This document shows positions 2,715 to 53,934 of a stretch of 64,000 nucleotides of DNA, piece after piece. Each line of letters opens with the position of its first letter. Position 1 is the stretch's first letter. The notes beneath the pieces are model-generated. The model worked only from the letters and a program-made list of their open reading frames with translations. It made no database searches and was not told the origin of the DNA. The position numbers were made by a program, and so were the translations under genes. Origin of the DNA: the human T2T-CHM13v2.0 reference genome, Homo sapiens; assembly GCF_009914755.1 (NCBI RefSeq), contig NC_060947.1. One strand, written 5' to 3'.

Positions 2715-2872
2715 TTAAATGATGTGTGCAGTATCATCATTTAACTGCTGAAAAATTTGAGACCGCAAAATGTTAAATAAATTAGCTTATGTTAAAAGTT
2801 CATTGCAGAACGGAAACCCAGGTTTAGTTATTCCTGGTCCTATTTCCTAAACTTTGAGCAACACGGCTTCCC
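2715..2872 (-). mobile_element. MIR SINE (degraded)
   Basis: Antisense MIR-like core: tgaaaaatttgagaccgcaaaatgttaaataaattagc...aaacccaggtttag. Confidence 0.45.
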
Positions 2873-2940
2873 TAAATTACTTTTATTTCACGTAGGAGTT
2901 AAATACTTATTTGACATTTTTAATGTACATTGCCTTAATG

Positions 2941-2959
2941 AGTTATTTTATATTACAGG
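2941..2959 (+). other. Splice acceptor of the terminal coding exon of the TASL-like gene
   Basis: ttattttatattacag|G, with AG at 2957-2958, 41 nt before the ATG at 3000, which has A at -3. Confidence 0.55.
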
Positions 2960-2999
2960 AATATACTAGAAACTTACTTTGTAAAACTTGTCTAACAAA

Positions 3000-3925
3000 A
3001 TGCTTAGAGAAGCTTTCCTAATTGATCTTCTGTACAAAGAACAGAAATATGCAAAATTTTGCAAACCATTTACATGTAAGAAGACTGAAAAGGAAACTTG
3101 GAAAAAGAAGATTTTAGATAGAGAAGAAAATTCACTTTCCTCTGCTAAGATGGAAAATCAAGAAACAACTAGGAAAGAAAGTGTAACAGAGCAAAATGAT
3201 GATACAGATCAAATAAAATCTGTGGATGAGACAACTGTAGCAAAATGCAAAGGTATTACCTCTTCCAGGAAATGTGTCAGTTGCGTTGCCCATTTCAAAG
3301 AGAGAAAAACATGATCAAAGACAACTAGATTTATATAGATCCTGGTTGTGTATGAGTATTTGTCACAATTATTCTGACCTACAGATTGGAGGTGACGATG
3401 TGAGGAACATGTGTGATTCAGGCTGCTTTATGGAACACACACATAATGATGTTTTTAATGGTCCCCTTTTGTTTTCAGTTGGTAGGCCACTGGGTCATTC
3501 TCCTGTCATTGGGCCTCTAGAGACATTACCTACCTCAAAATTATTGAATGGGGATGAAAGCCAAGAAAAAAGTATGTTGTTTCATAAACAGCCCCTCTCT
3601 AATTCTATGCTTAATACTTATATGGAAAGAAAGGTGGACTAGCTCTGCAAACAATTATTGGAAGAAAATCTCACCAGATGCCACTCTGTAACCAATCTTA
3701 TGGCTTCCAATTTGCTAATGAATAATGTAAATTACATCAGCTTTCAAATCTCTCAAGAGCAGAACATTGAGTTATGGAAAGCTCAGGAAGCTGCCCTACA
3801 CTCTACCACTATGTAATCTGTGTAACATTTCTCATGGAAAGAGTGGAAAGAGTTCTTAATTCAGTACCCCTGACTTACAAATATCGAACCAGACAAGTAG
3901 GGAACTTCTATCACATCTACAGTAG
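3000..3925 (+). pseudogene. Disabled TASL/CXorf21-family (DUF4569, pLxIS adaptor) paralog, 'TASL-like'
   Basis: Three consecutive frames give: MLREAFLIDLLY (3000; TASL MLSEGYLSGLEY), SVDETTV (3219; SVDETQV), CMSICHNYSDLQIGGDDV (3349; CKSICKNYNDLQIAGGQV), GPLL (3460), PLSNSMLNTYMERKVD*LCKQLL (3592; PISNAVLNEYLEQKVVELYKQYI), LMASNLLMNNVNYISFQISQEQNIELWKA (ILASELIMTSVDQISLQVSREKNLETSKA) and FSTPDLQIS (3860-3886; ISTPSLHIS), ending at TAG 3923-3925. Lesions: frameshift between ~3240 and 3311, TAG 3640-3642, frameshift near 3802, TAA 3857-3859. TASL sequence is recalled from memory. Confidence 0.9.
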
Positions 3926-4380
3926 ATAACAAATGTAGGTTGTTTGGACAGACTTAAGAGACTGCAATAACAAGAGTTTTTTCTAGCTTATCATGTCACA
4001 TCTAGCCTTCTTTGGGGTGTGGTTATTATAGTTTTTGAGAAATGATTTGACCCATGGTACATCTGAATTCTTATAGGAGACAACTATAGTAACTACGTTT
4101 TAGAGTGCAAGTTCTTAATGTGTTGATATTTTAATAGTTGCCAAACTAAACTCTGTATGCGTTTACCTATTTAATTGTCACTGGCACCCCAAATCAATTA
4201 CCTCAGTGTCGCACAGCTTTATTTACAACAAAAATGGGATGAGGAGTGGATTATTGCTCCAAGATACTGAAGGACCATGAGAAGGTATATCAGAGAGGGA
4301 CATTTATTTCCCCACAAAAACGCATTTATACTGACAATCAAAATAGTCTAGGGGAAATTATGATATGTAGTTATGGATAT

Positions 4381-47285: not shown

Positions 47286-49029
47286 TATATAAATATGGAT
47301 ATGTATATTTTTTCCTCACCAGTCGGTTAAAAAAGAACAAGGACTAAGCTTATCAAATAGCATTTTCAAATAATTGGCTGTCTCAAGTAAGTTTGCTTCT
47401 AACTGATTCCATGGGTTTAATTGGAGTGGAGCAATCCCAGACAGCCTACAGTAACTTTAAGTAAAAATATCAACAGGTTATTACTGATATTAAAAAAGTT
47501 GAAGAGGAGTAATTTATTCCAAGAGACCCTTTGTGAGTCTGGGTTTAGCTAGAGCTAAAACTGGAAACTGTGTTTTTACTGATCACCGCTTTACCTTCTG
47601 CTTTGGGGTTTATGTATGGTAATTTTCTGGCCATTTTCAGGATATATTTCCAGGGTAGATTAGTTTAAGCTAAAGGTTAGCAACCTGGTTTTTATGTTCT
47701 GAGTGCCACATTACAAGATTTAAAGTTGTTTGTTTATCCTGGGTTGGCTCTGGGCAAAATTGAGGATTAGACAACCCTGACTTATATCTTTAGTTTATAC
47801 CTCAGATTCCTAGTTTAACATTCTTATCCTTCTGGCTTTTAATGAGTCATTTTCTGGGAATTTCTCATTTTTAAAGGGTTATACTAGAGGTGGAAGAATA
47901 TTTGTCTTTACTGTAGCTTCTGAAATGAGCGCAGTGAGGTGAGTTGCTATCACCCTTCCTCACATCTTCAGTAGAGAATAATTTAAAAATAATTCAGTGT
48001 AAGAGGTGACAAATTGTTGCTCATCCCATGTACAGTATTCTCCCCATTTGTGCCTCTTTCTGCCCACCCACCGGAAATTAGAAAAATATCTAAATATCTG
48101 AACCCTAAATGAATAAGAGCAGGAAGAAACCCTTGTAGACCAGAAGCCATTTTGGTGGATTGAAAGGTGCATTGAAATGTTATTAAGGGACTTTGGAAGG
48201 ATTATTAGGAGGATAAAAACACAATTTTGAAAGTGTAGCAAATAGAATAAAACAGTAAAATTTCCCTGAACATGAAATATTGCTTTTATTAATAATACTA
48301 CAGTGCTTTAGAGGCTACGAGAATGTATTTCTCCTTCTTAGCACCTACCTCTTATTGATTTGCTGCCAACAAATGATTACAATCTGTCGGTGCAACCTTA
48401 TTTAAGGTGGACAGATAAAACAAAGCAGACAAGTAGTTCTCAGCCCACAAAAGGATATAGAAACTGTCATTCATTTAGAAAACTAAACATTTAATAGTCT
48501 TAAAGTGTTATTGTATAAATTCTTGGAAAATGGCATGTTTTACATATGGAACAAAGTAAGGCACCATGAGTACCAGAAATCCAATTTAATCTTCAAGAGT
48601 GTTAGTGTGATCACTTTTCCTTAAAGTTAAATGCAAATATTACTCTCACACATTCTTTTTTCTTCAGAATTATTACTTGTGCTATGAACATGAAATGCTA
48701 TGTGGAAGCTAACTTTTCTCAGAAGTACCATACTAATATCAAGTACTTTGTGAAGATGTGGATCAGTATTTGTTAGTCACATTCCTATTTTCATCTTCCT
48801 TGGTGTTTCTAGCACTGGAAGTAACCATGAATGGAATTGACCTTACATTTGTTTCACTGTCATTTTTTGTCTTTTTTGAAGAGCATTAGGTATGGCAAAT
48901 ATTGTTGTTTGTGTAAAAATATGCCAGCTAAACTTAGGATTGCATCAGAAGCAAATAAATTAAAATTGCAATATACTATATTTGCTTTACTTTTCATAGG
49001 CAGACTATGTTATATTTCCATTTACGTAG

Positions 49030-49300
49030 GGAGTGTGTAATAGTAAGGTTAAGAAGCAGTCTCTGGAAACTGACTACCTAAATTCAAATCCTAGCTTCCC
49101 TTTTTAGCCTTATGGCTCTGAGAAAGTTACAGAATCACTCTAGGCCTTAGATTCCTCAACTGTAAAAGGAGAGTGGTAATAATGTTTCGAGAGTGGTAAT
49201 CTGTAAACCAGATTCTTCTGCCAGCTATTGTGAGAATTACATGCAGATAATACAAGCAGCTTAACACAGAGCCTGGTACATAGTAAGCTCAAAGTAAATG
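49030..49300 (+). mobile_element. MIR SINE
   Basis: ggttaagaagcagtctctgg..ttcaaatcctagct..ttcctcaactgtaaaagg..cacagagcctggtacatagtaagctc. Confidence 0.75.
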
Positions 49301-52222
49301 TTAGGTTTTTTGTTTGTTTGTTTGTTTGTTTTTGTTTTTTTTTCTACTACTGCTACTATTGCCACGACTTAAGCTGCTGCTGCTGCTACTGTGACTACTA
49401 CTACAAATACCAAAACTATTATAGTATAATAGAACAAATATATGGATGCTCCTAGTACTACTACCAAGAGTATCCAATACCACCATTATTGCTAAAATGA
49501 GAACTGAGCAGTTCCTGTCATTCTTCTTTTTCTGAGGCTTACATCTTCCCACTTCACCCTGACTTAGAAGGAGTAAAAATTACCACTGCCTTCAACACTA
49601 TTGTTTCAACTTCCCATCCTAACACATACATGTATGCACCTTGATAATGTCTGCATGAGTGCTGTTGAAGTACTGACTGTATCTTGGGGAATGCTGACCC
49701 CAGCAGGAAAATACATACTGTCTGTGTCTTTTCTTCAAATCCTGCCCCAGGCTGAGTGACATATGGTGCCCCCAAACCAACCCTGCGATAAGACTTTATT
49801 GTTGGCTGCAGCTAAACCCTCTTCTCAGTCCAACCCGTACGTTGAAAAAATGCCATTCATAATGAGGTGATATACACATACGTAGCACCTTTTTCATCCT
49901 GAAAGCATAACGGCTTCATTGCTAGTTAAATTGAGCTGTCTTTCTTTTTAATCTCACATTTTATAGGCTGAATAGGAATTCAGTTTATAGTTTATAATCT
50001 TTTCTTGACATTTATATTCTATTTCCCTCCTCCTTCACAAATGAACAGAGTCATTGCAGATTTTTCCTGGGAGACTATGAAACTTACTCTAGCAATACTG
50101 AGAGGCACATTAGAAAAAATGCTTAGGATTTTAAGAATGAATAATAAGGCAGCCCAGGGTATGCTTTATTATCCATTAACATGTGTTTAGGTTGGCCATT
50201 TATAGTAAAACCACCAGCTGAATGTCATACAAGTTCATAGAAGGCTGTATCTAGTTTATTCTGAGCCACTGGAAACTCTAAGCAGGGTTGTAAAATGTTC
50301 TTGTTTCCTAAATACCGTTTAAAATAAAATCGGACAAAAAATCTACTTTGTGTCTATATGCTATTATAGCTGACAGGTAAGAAAAATGCCAGGGATAATT
50401 GAGGAGGTTTCTGTATAAAATGTTAACACCTAACAAGAGCAAGCTTTCAACATAAAGGCAAAGATTTCTATAGATTTATATATAGGTTTGTGTGAAAATT
50501 TAGGGGATAAAACAGATCCTGTTTCTAATGCCATTTTATTTCTAAACGGTAATGTGTAGATATTCACTGCCTGTGGCGTAAGGAGAGAAGAGGAAGAAAT
50601 ACCTATCATAATATAGTCCAGGGGTGCCTGCAACTTCATAAACCTGGCATTGCAATTTAGCTTAATGCTGTGCCTAGATATGGTGGGGGGCGGGGAGGGA
50701 GAGGTGAGCTGAGTACAGGCCGTACGAGGCCATGGTATTTTTTCCCTTTGGACTGGAGCCATATTAAATGATATTTTTGCAATTCTATTAAATTAGAAGG
50801 GTAGAGTCATTGGTGCATCAGAATATTCTCAATCCTTTTGGTTTGGAGACCTACATAGAATCAGCAGTAAGCAAAAATGAAAGGTCAGAATCCTGTCAAT
50901 ATTTGACTGGCTGAAACAAGACATACACCTAAGCTGACTAAATGTAATTTGATCAAAAGTGTGATGGCTGACTTGTCTGTTTAGCCCAAATTGTAATTTG
51001 GTCCCAAATTACAATTGTCACTAGCATTGAGTTCTGGTCATTTCAATACAGAATAAGGGTGATTGGAAATGTTATGTGTAGGCATTTGTTGGAACAACTT
51101 AAATGTTCAGAAATAGAGGAGTACTTAAACTACTAAAAATAATAATATAAACACAACAATATTTGGCTTTGGAAGGTTTTGTTCCAAAGTGTTAGCAATA
51201 GTTTTCTCCAGATGGACGGGACTATGGGTATTATGTTCTTCCATTGCATATTTGTATTTTTCTCTGAGAGAGCCCTCTGCTTTCCTCTACTTTTGTAGTA
51301 ACAAAAATGGGAATTAAAAGAGCTAAGGAGACCAAATGAATTTTTTTAAAAGGAAATGTAAAAATCTGGAATTTTGGGTGAATTTAGCTTATATTTGTTT
51401 TAAGACAGTTATACCTGTTAGAATAGTTTGACTATGTTTTCATTTTCTGGCACCATGCCAAATATTTAAATTGAATTAAAATGTTTTGAAAAATAGACAC
51501 AAATTCTTAATCATCCACAAAGGGCTTCAGGACTATTCCTATGGCACTCCAAATGGACACATACTCAAAGAAAGAAAATATGTAATTTTACTCCACCCAA
51601 ATAAAATTTTGGCTAAATTGTCTTTTGGACAGCTTACTTCAGTTCAAATTTTGTGTAAAGATTTCTATTTTCAGTCCACCCGTCAAGGGACCTTGCATGA
51701 TTTTTCTGGTCTTTAAGTAAATCATGTGATAAACATTCGCAATAAAATGTGCAAAACGTGATGCATATTGAAAAGAGAGAGAAAAGGAGTAGTGTATACT
51801 TCAAGTAGTATATAACTCATGACTAGGAGTGAGATCTGTGGGACAATGATTTAACTGGTGCCCTTCAAATTATATTGGTACATAACAAAATACTTCTATC
51901 TGGTTAAGGCCAGATTTTGAGATCATAGAAAACTGTGAGCAATAAAAAGCTTTAACAGAGACTTGGGTCTCAGAACTCTGGACCCTGGATGGCAAGAGAA
52001 AAATCACTTTTCTTCCAAGCTTTGAAATATCTGGAAGTCTGAAAATCAACACAGGTCACATTAGGTAGCTTTTAGTTCACTAGCTTGGATCATCTTAGTG
52101 GTATTTATAAGACTGAAGAGAAATGCTACCTTTCGTTTGTGGAGATTGCTTTTGCAGAATATTCCATATTCCAGAGAATCCACATGAGACTAAAGAAGGG
52201 AGTTACGCCGTTTTCATTCTTT

Positions 52223-52331
52223 TTTTTTTGGAGATGGAGTCTCGCTCTGTCGCCCAGGATGGAGTGCAGTGACGCGATCTCGGCTCACTGCAACCTCCGC
52301 CTCCCAGATTCAAGCGATTCTCCCGCCTCAG
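52223..52331 (-). mobile_element. 5'-truncated Alu (AluS right-arm end) with 14-bp TSD
   Basis: TSD CGTTTTCATTCTTT at 52209-52222 and 52332-52345. Confidence 0.9.
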
Positions 52332-52359
52332 CGTTTTCATTCTTTAAAAAAGCCTGATA

Positions 52360-52925
<566 letters not shown>

Positions 52926-53934
52926 AAAAAAAAAAACCGGGAAAAAAATGATAACAATAAGAAGCAAAACTCAAAACACCACTAAAAAAACACAGCTATT
53001 TAAAGAAAACTCCTTGAAGGTAATTTTATGAATAAACTTTTAAAGGTTTAATTGGTTTAGGTTTTTAAATTATCACAAATCCTTGGAATTACAATCTAGT
53101 TTAATACTAATTTATTACAACACATTTATAATGCTTTTCCTTCTGTTGATTAATTACTAAGATCCTCTTCTTATTGGAAAATGTAGGCATTCTTGTGCTG
53201 ACTTTCTTAATTAACAAATGTGATGTGAATTCAATCACCAGAAAGGACCCATTTATTATAGCCTATAGGGTACTGGGGGGAGCAATTTGCTTCTACCTTG
53301 TTTTCCTGCTACCAGAGTTTTCCAGAAAGAAGCTCTTCATTGCAGCAAACATAGTCGTAATCCTCTTTACTGTTTTTTTTTGTTTTAACAGATAAAGAAA
53401 CTATTAAATAGTGAAATTTGAAATCTTCCACTTAGATGGAAACAAATGGGCCAACATTCCTTTTCAAGACCTTGAGATGGAGGTAGCTTAGTTTTAAGAG
53501 AGACAATCACAGTATCTGAAATAGCTTCTGCCATAACTCAAACTGGACATTTACAAAAGCTGAGATAGGATTTCCTTTTAAATCAATAGGAGAATAGGAG
53601 GAGGTGCCATTTACTCAAGTGGTTGACACCAATAGCTTCACAACAAATACTATATTTTAGCTACTTGAAAAGTAAGGTTGGGATTGGGGGCAGAAGGGGA
53701 CATAAATAAAATGCTTTTGGACTTTAATTGTAAGCCATTTATTCTCTTGGATTATTTCTTTGGCCTGTGCACGTTAACACTTGTCTTGAATTGTCACATC
53801 CCTGCACCTCAGTTCTGTAAAGCTAGTTGACCGAATCTTGGAAAAAATATCTAAAGATGTTGGGTAACTGAATGAGAGAATGAGATGATATTTGATATTC
53901 TGGCTATAAATTTTAACTAGAATAATGGTGGATA

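What the first reader, a model, noticed from the sequence alone, without database searches (positions are those of the whole stretch)
3000..3925. Fossil of a second, deeply diverged TASL-type (pLxIS / IRF5) innate-immune adaptor gene
Seen: three abutting frames stitch into a ~300-codon protein with six blocks colinear with human TASL, ending in STPDLQIS. Known: TASL binds SLC15A4 through its N-terminal helix, where E4 is critical, and recruits IRF5 through a C-terminal pLxIS motif downstream of TLR7/8/9; mouse has a second functional paralog, Gm6377/Tasl2. Inference: outside the blocks it barely aligns to TASL, yet it has only four visible disablements. That fits an old paralog that stayed functional for a long time and was lost fairly recently, not a decayed recent TASL copy. 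Intact orthologs elsewhere could be an uncharacterised SLC15A3/SLC15A4-to-IRF adaptor. I cannot tell whether it is orthologous to mouse Tasl2 or is a third family member.
Basis: partly seen in the sequence, partly recalled or inferred. Interest (0 to 1): 0.9.

Follow-up and report, generated by a model that had tools for sequence, protein, structure and literature searches.

The report
Dead human copy of TASL2 gene
This stretch of the human X chromosome is the broken remnant of TASL2, a second immune-signalling adaptor that still works in mice and still reads as an open gene in rhesus macaque, so humans are left with TASL alone.

Summary
Window 3000-3925 (+) is one contiguous, about 305-codon reading of a TASL-family (Pfam PF15133) gene. 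It runs through three frames, from an ATG at 3000 to a native stop at 3923-3925. Four lesions break it: a 1-bp surplus base (3258), TAG (3640-3642), a 2-bp deletion (3802) and TAA (3857-3859). There is also an in-frame 9-bp tandem duplication.

It is not a third family member. Its best relative is a 301-aa rhesus macaque protein (91% identity, colinear over residues 1-301). In a 51-row maximum-likelihood tree it is sister to that protein (100/100). Both sit inside the placental "TASL-like" clade (96/97), which holds the rodent Gm6377/Tasl2 proteins. Human TASL lies far away, across a 1.40 branch (100/100).

The human T2T genome holds only this locus and TASL. So this is the unitary pseudogene of human TASL2, disabled after the split from Old World monkeys.

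The literature I searched says TASL2 is "absent in human" and describes no relic. The hub's RefSeq table has no gene here. It is a modest, tidy result: a known gene family and a known function, with an undescribed human fossil. Lesion dating in apes and mouse-side synteny could not be tested here.

The parts
2946..2958 (+). Pyrimidine-rich tract ending in AG, 41 bp upstream of the ATG. Looks like the splice acceptor of a single coding exon.
   Evidence: Read directly. The splice role is inferred, not tested.
3000..3257 (+). Segment A, frame 3: codons 1-86. Includes the N-terminal MLxEAFL... stretch (3000-3041) that corresponds to the SLC15A4-inserting helix of TASL.
   Evidence: tblastn against macaque P0001 residues 1-86: 82/86 identical. 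Pfam PF15133 profile 1-78.
3258..3258 (+). Lesion 1: one surplus base within GGTATTACCT, shifting frame 3 to frame 1. Which base of ATTA is the extra one is ambiguous.
   Evidence...KGI, then one base, then PLPGNVS, as in macaque KGIPLPGNVS.
3259..3639 (+). Segment B, frame 1: the conserved core (SIC.NY.DLQIGG, GPLL, QPLSNSMLN.YME.KVD).
   Evidence: Pfam profile 90-221, E 5.1e-37. 89% identity to P0001.
3640..3642 (+). Lesion 2: in-frame TAG where all compared relatives have Glu (VD-E-LYKQ).
3643..3801 (+). Segment C, frame 1.
   Evidence: Pfam profile 224-277, E 8.1e-17..
3802..3802 (+). Lesion 3: one base left of a Ser codon (a 2-bp deletion in a CT micro-repeat), shifting frame 1 to frame 2.
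   Evidence...ALH, then T, then LPLCNL, against macaque ...LHSLPLCNL.
3803..3856 (+). Segment D, frame 2. Contains an in-frame 9-bp tandem duplication, GGAAAGAGT twice (3836-3853), that adds GKS.
   Evidence: A 3-residue gap in all 20 other placental rows of the alignment.
3857..3859 (+). Lesion 4: TAA where relatives have Glu (SS-E-FSTP), one codon before the pLxIS-bearing tail.
3860..3922 (+). Segment E, frame 2: the C-terminal tail, with the pLxIS-type motif D-L-Q-I-S at 3872-3886.
   Evidence: Relatives read STPNLQISNQ.
3923..3925 (+). Native stop codon TAG, at the same position as in the Propithecus and Loxodonta proteins.

Best explanation
Window 3000-3925 (+) is the unitary, unprocessed pseudogene of human TASL2. 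TASL2 is the ortholog of mouse Gm6377/Tasl2 and the ancient paralog of TASL/CXorf21.

The ancestral gene encoded an adaptor of about 300 aa. By homology with TASL and by the mouse TASL2 experiments, its N-terminal helix docks into SLC15A4 on endolysosomes, and its C-terminal pLxIS motif recruits IRF5 after TLR7/9 stimulation.

In the human lineage the single coding exon acquired two frameshifts and two nonsense codons. The longest product that could start at the native ATG is 104 codons: 86 native plus 18 out-of-frame. It lacks the core and the pLxIS motif, so the locus cannot make an IRF5 adaptor.

Shown here: family membership, orthology by tree, the lesions, and the absence of any other copy in this genome. 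Inferred: the ancestral mechanism, the timing of the loss, and fixation of the lesions in the human population.
For: (1) Pfam PF15133 matches three pieces colinearly. The genome-wide scan gives E 1.3e-58.

(2) The best relative of 75 hits (193 candidates) is macaque P0001, 301 aa, 89% identity on the core. tblastn covers residues 1-301 of P0001 in three frames, and no other HSP in the 64-kb window has E below 0.4.

(3) Careful IQ-TREE of 51 rows: window + Macaca 100/100; + Propithecus 98/94; placental TASL-like clade 96/97; tetrapod TASL-like clade 99/99. The TASL clade of 22 rows, human TASL included, is separated at 100/100 by a branch of 1.40. The quick tree agreed.

(4) The clade is Tasl2. 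P0020 carries the UniRef name 'Gm6377 protein'. The Tasl2 guide RNA printed in PMC11759703 translates to ISNQAS, found in P0018 (Mus caroli cluster) alone of the 4 proteins checked.

(5) Identity to human TASL is only 36% (38/107). Macaque TASL2 against human TASL is 34% (67/197).

(6) The human T2T genome has only two family loci, whether searched with the Pfam model or with P0001 (this locus in three pieces, plus TASL at 38%).

(7) Lesions were mapped base by base.

(8) Mouse TASL2 binds mouse SLC15A4 through its N-terminus and needs its pLxIS motif to activate IRF5 (PMC11759703, passages).
Against: Nothing found contradicts it. The limits are these.

Only one human haplotype (CHM13) was read, so fixation of the four lesions is assumed.

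Mouse-side synteny (Gm6377 next to Sh3bgrl) rests on my recollection. No eukaryote genome other than this one can be read here, and no paper held both names.

Whether the macaque gene is functional is open. Its lineage carries more private amino-acid changes than the human fossil: 15 against 7 of 298 columns. The only other monkey model found (Papio P0196, 226 aa) lacks macaque residues 85-159.

I could not see GENCODE/Ensembl, where the locus may already be labelled.
Confidence: 0.95

Rival explanations
1. It is a third, separate TASL-family member (neither TASL nor TASL2) whose intact orthologs would be an uncharacterised adaptor.
For: Low identity to human TASL (36%).
Against: It nests inside the TASL-like/Gm6377 clade in species-tree order, primates next to Glires and tree shrew. 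The tetrapod rows fall into only two clades, and each of the 12 species sampled for both contributes one row to each clade. Only two family loci exist in the human genome.
Confidence: 0.01
2. It is a decayed duplicate or retrocopy of human TASL itself.
For: Same chromosome. The coding region is intronless, as in TASL.
Against: 91% identity to macaque TASL-like against 34-38% to TASL. A 1.40 branch separates the clades. The ORF is preceded by an acceptor-like pyrimidine tract plus AG rather than by 5'UTR sequence (inferred). The first AATAAA after the stop lies about 800 bp downstream. I did not look for a poly-A tract.
Confidence: 0.01
3. The locus is still biologically active in some form. 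For example, the 104-codon ORF from the native ATG (86 native residues with the SLC15A4-docking-type N-terminus) could be expressed as a decoy, or the transcript could act as an RNA.
For: The ATG and first 86 codons are intact and 95% identical to macaque (82/86). In mouse cells a TASL2 pLxIS mutant appeared dominant-negative (PMC11759703).
Against: There is no evidence of transcription or translation, and none could be sought here. Only 1 of the 7 human-only changes falls in the first 86 codons (Gly3 to Arg), close to the roughly 2 expected if changes were spread evenly, so there is no sign of preferential conservation. Residue 3 sits in the docking helix. In TASL the backbone of residues 2 and 3 contacts SLC15A4 E465 (PMC10589346). 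Mouse TASL2 did not bind human SLC15A4.
Confidence: 0.03

Closest known systems
Mouse TASL2 (Gm6377), functional paralog of TASL (Drobek et al. 2025, PMC11759703)
   Same: Same orthology group by tree. Same length and single contiguous coding region. Same N-terminal MLGEAFL-type start and C-terminal STPNLQISNQ-type pLxIS tail. 72% identity over the core and colinear with Mus caroli P0018 in all three frames.
   Different: The human copy carries two frameshifts, two nonsense codons and a 9-bp duplication, and cannot encode the adaptor. It also shares with macaque 46 changes relative to the other placentals, of 298 columns.
Rhesus macaque 'hypothetical protein EGK_20687' (P0001) and other mammalian 'TASL-like' predicted proteins
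   Same: Nearest relative: 91% identity over 298 columns, sister at 100/100.
   Different: The macaque ORF is open (301 aa) and ends 4 codons earlier. It has none of the four human lesions.
Human TASL (CXorf21), Xp21.2, the SLC15A4-associated IRF5 adaptor
   Same: Same Pfam family PF15133. X-linked. Same block order. N-terminal helix and C-terminal pLxIS logic.
   Different: Only 34-38% identical. It belongs to a different clade that split before the amniote radiation, and it is intact in the human genome.
Human unitary pseudogenes of immune genes (a class recalled from general knowledge, not from a call)
   Same: A gene lost in the human lineage with no functional parent copy, and still active in other mammals.
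   Different: This case was not described in the literature I could search.

Membership tests
TASL family (Pfam PF15133) | Match to the family HMM above the curated cut-off (27 bits) | tested here: met
   128.7 and 62.3 bits for the two central pieces. 22.8 bits (below cut-off) for the N-terminal piece alone. 209.1 bits in the genome scan.
TASL family (Pfam PF15133) | C-terminal pLxIS motif | tested here: met
   D-L-Q-I-S at 3872-3886, aligned with the STPNLQIS of relatives. It lies downstream of all four lesions, so it cannot be translated from the native ATG.
TASL family (Pfam PF15133) | N-terminal helix that binds SLC15A4 | not testable with these tools
   The sequence MLREAFLIDLLYKE is present with Glu4. 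Gly3 is changed to Arg, which is human-only. Binding was not tested, and PDB sequence searches found no chain.
TASL2 / Gm6377 orthology group | Placement inside the Gm6377 clade, in species-tree order | tested here: met
   100/100 with Macaca, 98/94 with Propithecus, 96/97 for the placental clade that holds Mus caroli P0018 and Phodopus P0020. The link of P0018 to Gm6377 is by guide-RNA translation.
TASL2 / Gm6377 orthology group | Conserved synteny (downstream of SH3BGRL on X) | not testable with these tools
   Human side: SH3BGRL ends about 62 kb upstream (hub annotation). Mouse side: recalled only. No paper held both gene names. TASL and TASL-like lie on contigs of identical length in Lepus and Mus caroli, which suggests only the same chromosome.
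TASL2 / Gm6377 orthology group | Only copy in the genome (unitary, with no functional parent) | tested here: met
   only this locus and TASL.
Functional protein-coding gene | Uninterrupted ORF | tested here: not met
   Two frameshifts and two in-frame stops.

The most novel reading that the evidence does not exclude
TASL2 went through a burst of fast, possibly adaptive, change on the stem leading to Old World monkeys and apes. 46 of 298 columns changed, 11 of them at positions at least 90% conserved in 19 other placentals. The gene was then lost only in apes, while Old World monkeys keep a working second SLC15A4-to-IRF5 adaptor. If so, humans depend on X-linked TASL alone, which fits TASL loss fully phenocopying SLC15A4 loss in human cells but not in mouse cells. 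Macaques, a main preclinical species, would then differ from humans in this lupus-relevant pathway. The failure of mouse TASL2 to bind human SLC15A4 could be a trace of the released co-evolution.
Probability: 0.4. Interest if true: 0.5.

Novelty: new member of a known kind. Interest (0 to 1): 0.35.

Why it matters
Two papers on TASL2 state that the gene is absent from the human genome (PMC11759703; PMC13552680). The fossil shows that the gene was not missing from the start. It was lost by decay in the human lineage, and the break points are known.

That gives a datable event to compare across apes. It also gives a genomic reason why TASL alone carries TLR7/8/9-to-IRF5 signalling in humans but not in mice.

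It raises a practical warning as well. Rhesus macaque appears to keep an open TASL2 ORF, which matters when TASL-directed lupus drugs are tested in monkeys.

It does not reveal a new kind of adaptor.

Tried and rejected
Third family member: rejected by the tree.

Decayed TASL copy: rejected by identity and tree.

PDB sequence search with the core and the N-terminal piece: 0 matches at E up to 10. No structural comparison was made.

Mouse synteny from the literature: 0 papers hold both Gm6377 and Sh3bgrl.

Search for a published name of the pseudogene (TASL2P, TASLP1, CXorf21P1, CXorf21-like, 'CXorf21 pseudogene', 'TASL pseudogene'): 1 paper, which is unrelated speech-processing text.

SLC15A4 + TASL + pseudogene: 4 papers. 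In all 4 the word 'pseudogene' refers to other things (passages read).

Supplementary Fig. 3a of PMC11759703, the ortholog alignment that may bear on 'absent in human', is in a PDF that cannot be read here.

Heinz et al. 2020 is not held.

Dating the loss or measuring dN/dS: not possible, because no primate DNA other than this genome is reachable.

A full-length search with macaque P0001 (139 hits at E up to 1e-20 among 476 candidates, best 120 listed) showed no protein between 77% and 97% identity. So no separate full-length ORF from New World monkeys, tarsier or apes is in that database. This is weak evidence, because apes could hide inside the 14-member macaque cluster, whose members I could not list.

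Full report
**What is there**

Reading 2800-4200 and listing stop-to-stop frames shows, on the + strand, three abutting frames. Frame 3 runs from an ATG at 3000. Frame 1 covers 3241-3642 and 3643-3816. Frame 2 ends in FSTPDLQISNQTSRELLSHLQ, followed by TAG at 3923-3925.

Pfam-A places the pieces colinearly on PF15133 (TASL, 300 positions):
- Piece 3000-3311 matches profile 1-78 (E 9.1e-5, 22.8 bits, below the 27-bit cut-off by itself).
- Piece 3241-3639 matches profile 90-221 (E 5.1e-37).
- Piece 3643-3813 matches profile 224-277 (E 8.1e-17).
- The 21-aa tail gave no hit on its own.

Scanning the whole assembly with the same model finds two loci only. One is TASL itself at chrX:30.15 Mb (E 4.5e-122, an open 301-aa ORF). 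The other is this locus (E 1.3e-58).

**The lesions**

I mapped the lesions against the best relative, a 301-aa rhesus macaque protein (P0001). tblastn covers its residues 1-301 in three frames. Residues 1-86 match in frame 3 with 82/86 identical. The core matches in frame 1 and the tail in frame 2. No other match in the 64-kb window has E below 0.4.

Base-level reading gives:
1. One surplus base at 3258 (…KGI | A | PLPGNVS…).
2. TAG at 3640-3642, where relatives have the Glu of VDELYKQ.
3. A 2-bp deletion that leaves one base (3802) of a Ser codon, inside a CT micro-repeat.
4. TAA at 3857-3859, where relatives have the Glu of SSEFSTP, one codon before the pLxIS-bearing tail.

In addition, a 9-bp unit (GGAAAGAGT) is tandemly duplicated in frame at 3836-3853, adding three residues that are absent from all 20 other placental rows.

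The longest product from the native ATG is 104 codons: 86 native plus 18 out of frame. A pyrimidine tract ending in AG at 2946-2958 looks like the acceptor of a single coding exon. This is read from the sequence, and the splice function is inferred.

**Which gene it is**

A search of 5.8 billion proteins with the 133-aa core, restricted to longer proteins, returned 75 hits among 193 candidates. The best was macaque P0001 (89% identity). Next came many placental proteins named 'TASL-like' or 'CXorf21-like' at 65-77%. These include Mus caroli P0018 and Phodopus P0020, whose UniRef name is 'Gm6377 protein'. After them came marsupial, turtle, squamate and bird proteins, and last three fish.

Human TASL as query returned the true TASL orthologs (222 hits among 882 candidates, best 120 listed).

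I built a tree from 51 rows: 28 named-species rows of the 75, 21 named-species rows of the 120, human TASL, and the window read through with X at breaks. I picked rows to give paired species where possible. All unnamed rows and the remaining named ones were left out.

The careful IQ-TREE run (LG+C20+F+G4) gave:
- Window + Macaca: 100/100.
- Adding Propithecus: 98/94.
- Placental TASL-like clade: 96/97.
- Tetrapod TASL-like clade: 99/99.
- The 22 TASL rows on the other side of a 1.40 branch: 100/100.

The quick tree gave the same picture. The tool warns that the long fish rows are unreliable. They do not affect the placement of the window.

The Tasl2 guide RNA printed in the Methods of PMC11759703 translates to ISNQAS. 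That peptide occurs in P0018 alone among the four proteins checked, which ties this clade to the gene that paper calls Tasl2.

Identity to human TASL is 36% (38/107). Macaque TASL-like against human TASL is 34% (67/197).

Searching the human assembly with P0001 finds only this locus (three pieces, three frames) and TASL at 38%.

Hence this is the unitary pseudogene of human TASL2. It is not a third paralog and not a decayed copy of TASL.

**How it worked, and why it no longer can**

The mechanism rests on papers and homology, not on tests made here. The TASL N-terminal helix (residues 1-14) inserts into the inward-facing pocket of SLC15A4 (PMC10589346, passages). Mouse TASL2 co-precipitates with mouse SLC15A4. 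Its activity needs both the N-terminal region and the pLxIS motif, and Tasl/Tasl2 double knockout phenocopies Slc15a4 deficiency (PMC11759703, abstract and passages).

The human fossil keeps both end motifs in recognisable form: MLREAFL… with Glu4, and DLQIS. All four lesions lie between the ATG and the pLxIS motif, so no IRF5-recruiting product can be made.

**Timing and rate**

I polarised human against macaque using 19 other placental TASL2 proteins (298 comparable columns):
- 225 columns unchanged.
- 46 changes shared by human and macaque.
- 7 human-only changes.
- 15 macaque-only changes.
- 5 columns where both differ.

Among the 107 columns at least 90% conserved in the other placentals, 11 changes are shared, 3 are human-only and 4 are macaque-only.

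In the tree the stem leading to human and macaque is 0.144 long. The terminal branches are 0.029 (human) and 0.063 (macaque).

The root-to-tip length of TASL2 relative to TASL is 3.2 in human. In other species it is 1.1 in Lepus, 1.3 in Mus caroli and 3.1 in Loxodonta.

So fast evolution began before the human-macaque split, while the ORF-breaking lesions came after it, at least relative to rhesus.

Using substitution and indel rates that I recall rather than measured, and the stop-creating fraction of 0.038-0.051 computed, four disabling lesions in about 915 bp correspond to tens of millions of years of neutral drift, with a very wide Poisson range. On that basis I expect the loss to be old within apes. 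This is inference.

**An unexplained point**

The macaque lineage has changed at least as fast as the dead human copy, yet its ORF is open. The only other monkey model found (Papio P0196, 226 aa) equals macaque at 219 of 223 comparable columns but lacks macaque residues 85-159. Whether that gap is a lesion, an assembly gap or a modelling artefact is unknown. Positive selection, recent relaxation of constraint, or an over-generous gene model in macaque all remain possible.

**Novelty**

[quoted passage not shown] PMC13552680 says 'TASL2 is absent in human' (passage). A review calls TASL2 a 'murine specific paralogue' (PMC13372010, passage).

None of these, nor PMC12612386, uses the word 'pseudogene'. 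Name searches and the search for SLC15A4+TASL+pseudogene (passages read) found no description of a human relic.

The hub's RefSeq table for this window has no gene at 3000-3925. I could not consult GENCODE/Ensembl, nor the PDF supplement with the ortholog figure. Either may already show it.

The result is a new, small fact about a known gene family. It is ordinary in kind (a unitary pseudogene), useful for explaining the mouse-human difference, and worth a note of caution for macaque studies.

Noticed in passing
P0001 (Macaca) and P0196 (Papio), compared with window 3000-3925: The macaque TASL2 lineage has more private amino-acid changes than the dead human copy: 15 against 7 of 298 columns. 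Some are at positions invariant in 19 other placentals. Both monkey proteins end 4 codons before the stop used by human, Propithecus and Loxodonta.
   Followed up: partly
P0196 (Papio anubis, 226 aa): This baboon model skips exactly macaque residues 85-159. The skip starts right after ...AKCK, within two codons of the place where the human copy has its 1-bp frameshift. It could be a lesion, a gap or a modelling artefact in baboon.
   Followed up: no
Hit lists: No named carnivore, horse, pig or cattle protein appears among the TASL-like (TASL2) hits. Carnivore TASL proteins (Mustela, Lycaon) are present in the TASL list. This may indicate further independent TASL2 losses, or those species may simply hide among the unnamed rows.
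   Followed up: no
Tree: The three ray-finned fish proteins named 'TASL' (Amia, Lepisosteus, Clupea) attach on the TASL2 side of the long TASL branch. The TASL clade therefore looks like the fast-diverged lineage. The long-branch warnings from the tool apply.
   Followed up: no
window 3836-3853: A perfect 9-bp tandem duplication (GGAAAGAGT twice), in frame, inside the pseudogene. It is specific to the human row among 21 placental rows.
   Followed up: yes
window 48669-53377: The hub table lists an SLC9A2 pseudogene (LOC100422471) here. It is unrelated to the finding and I did not examine it.
   Followed up: no
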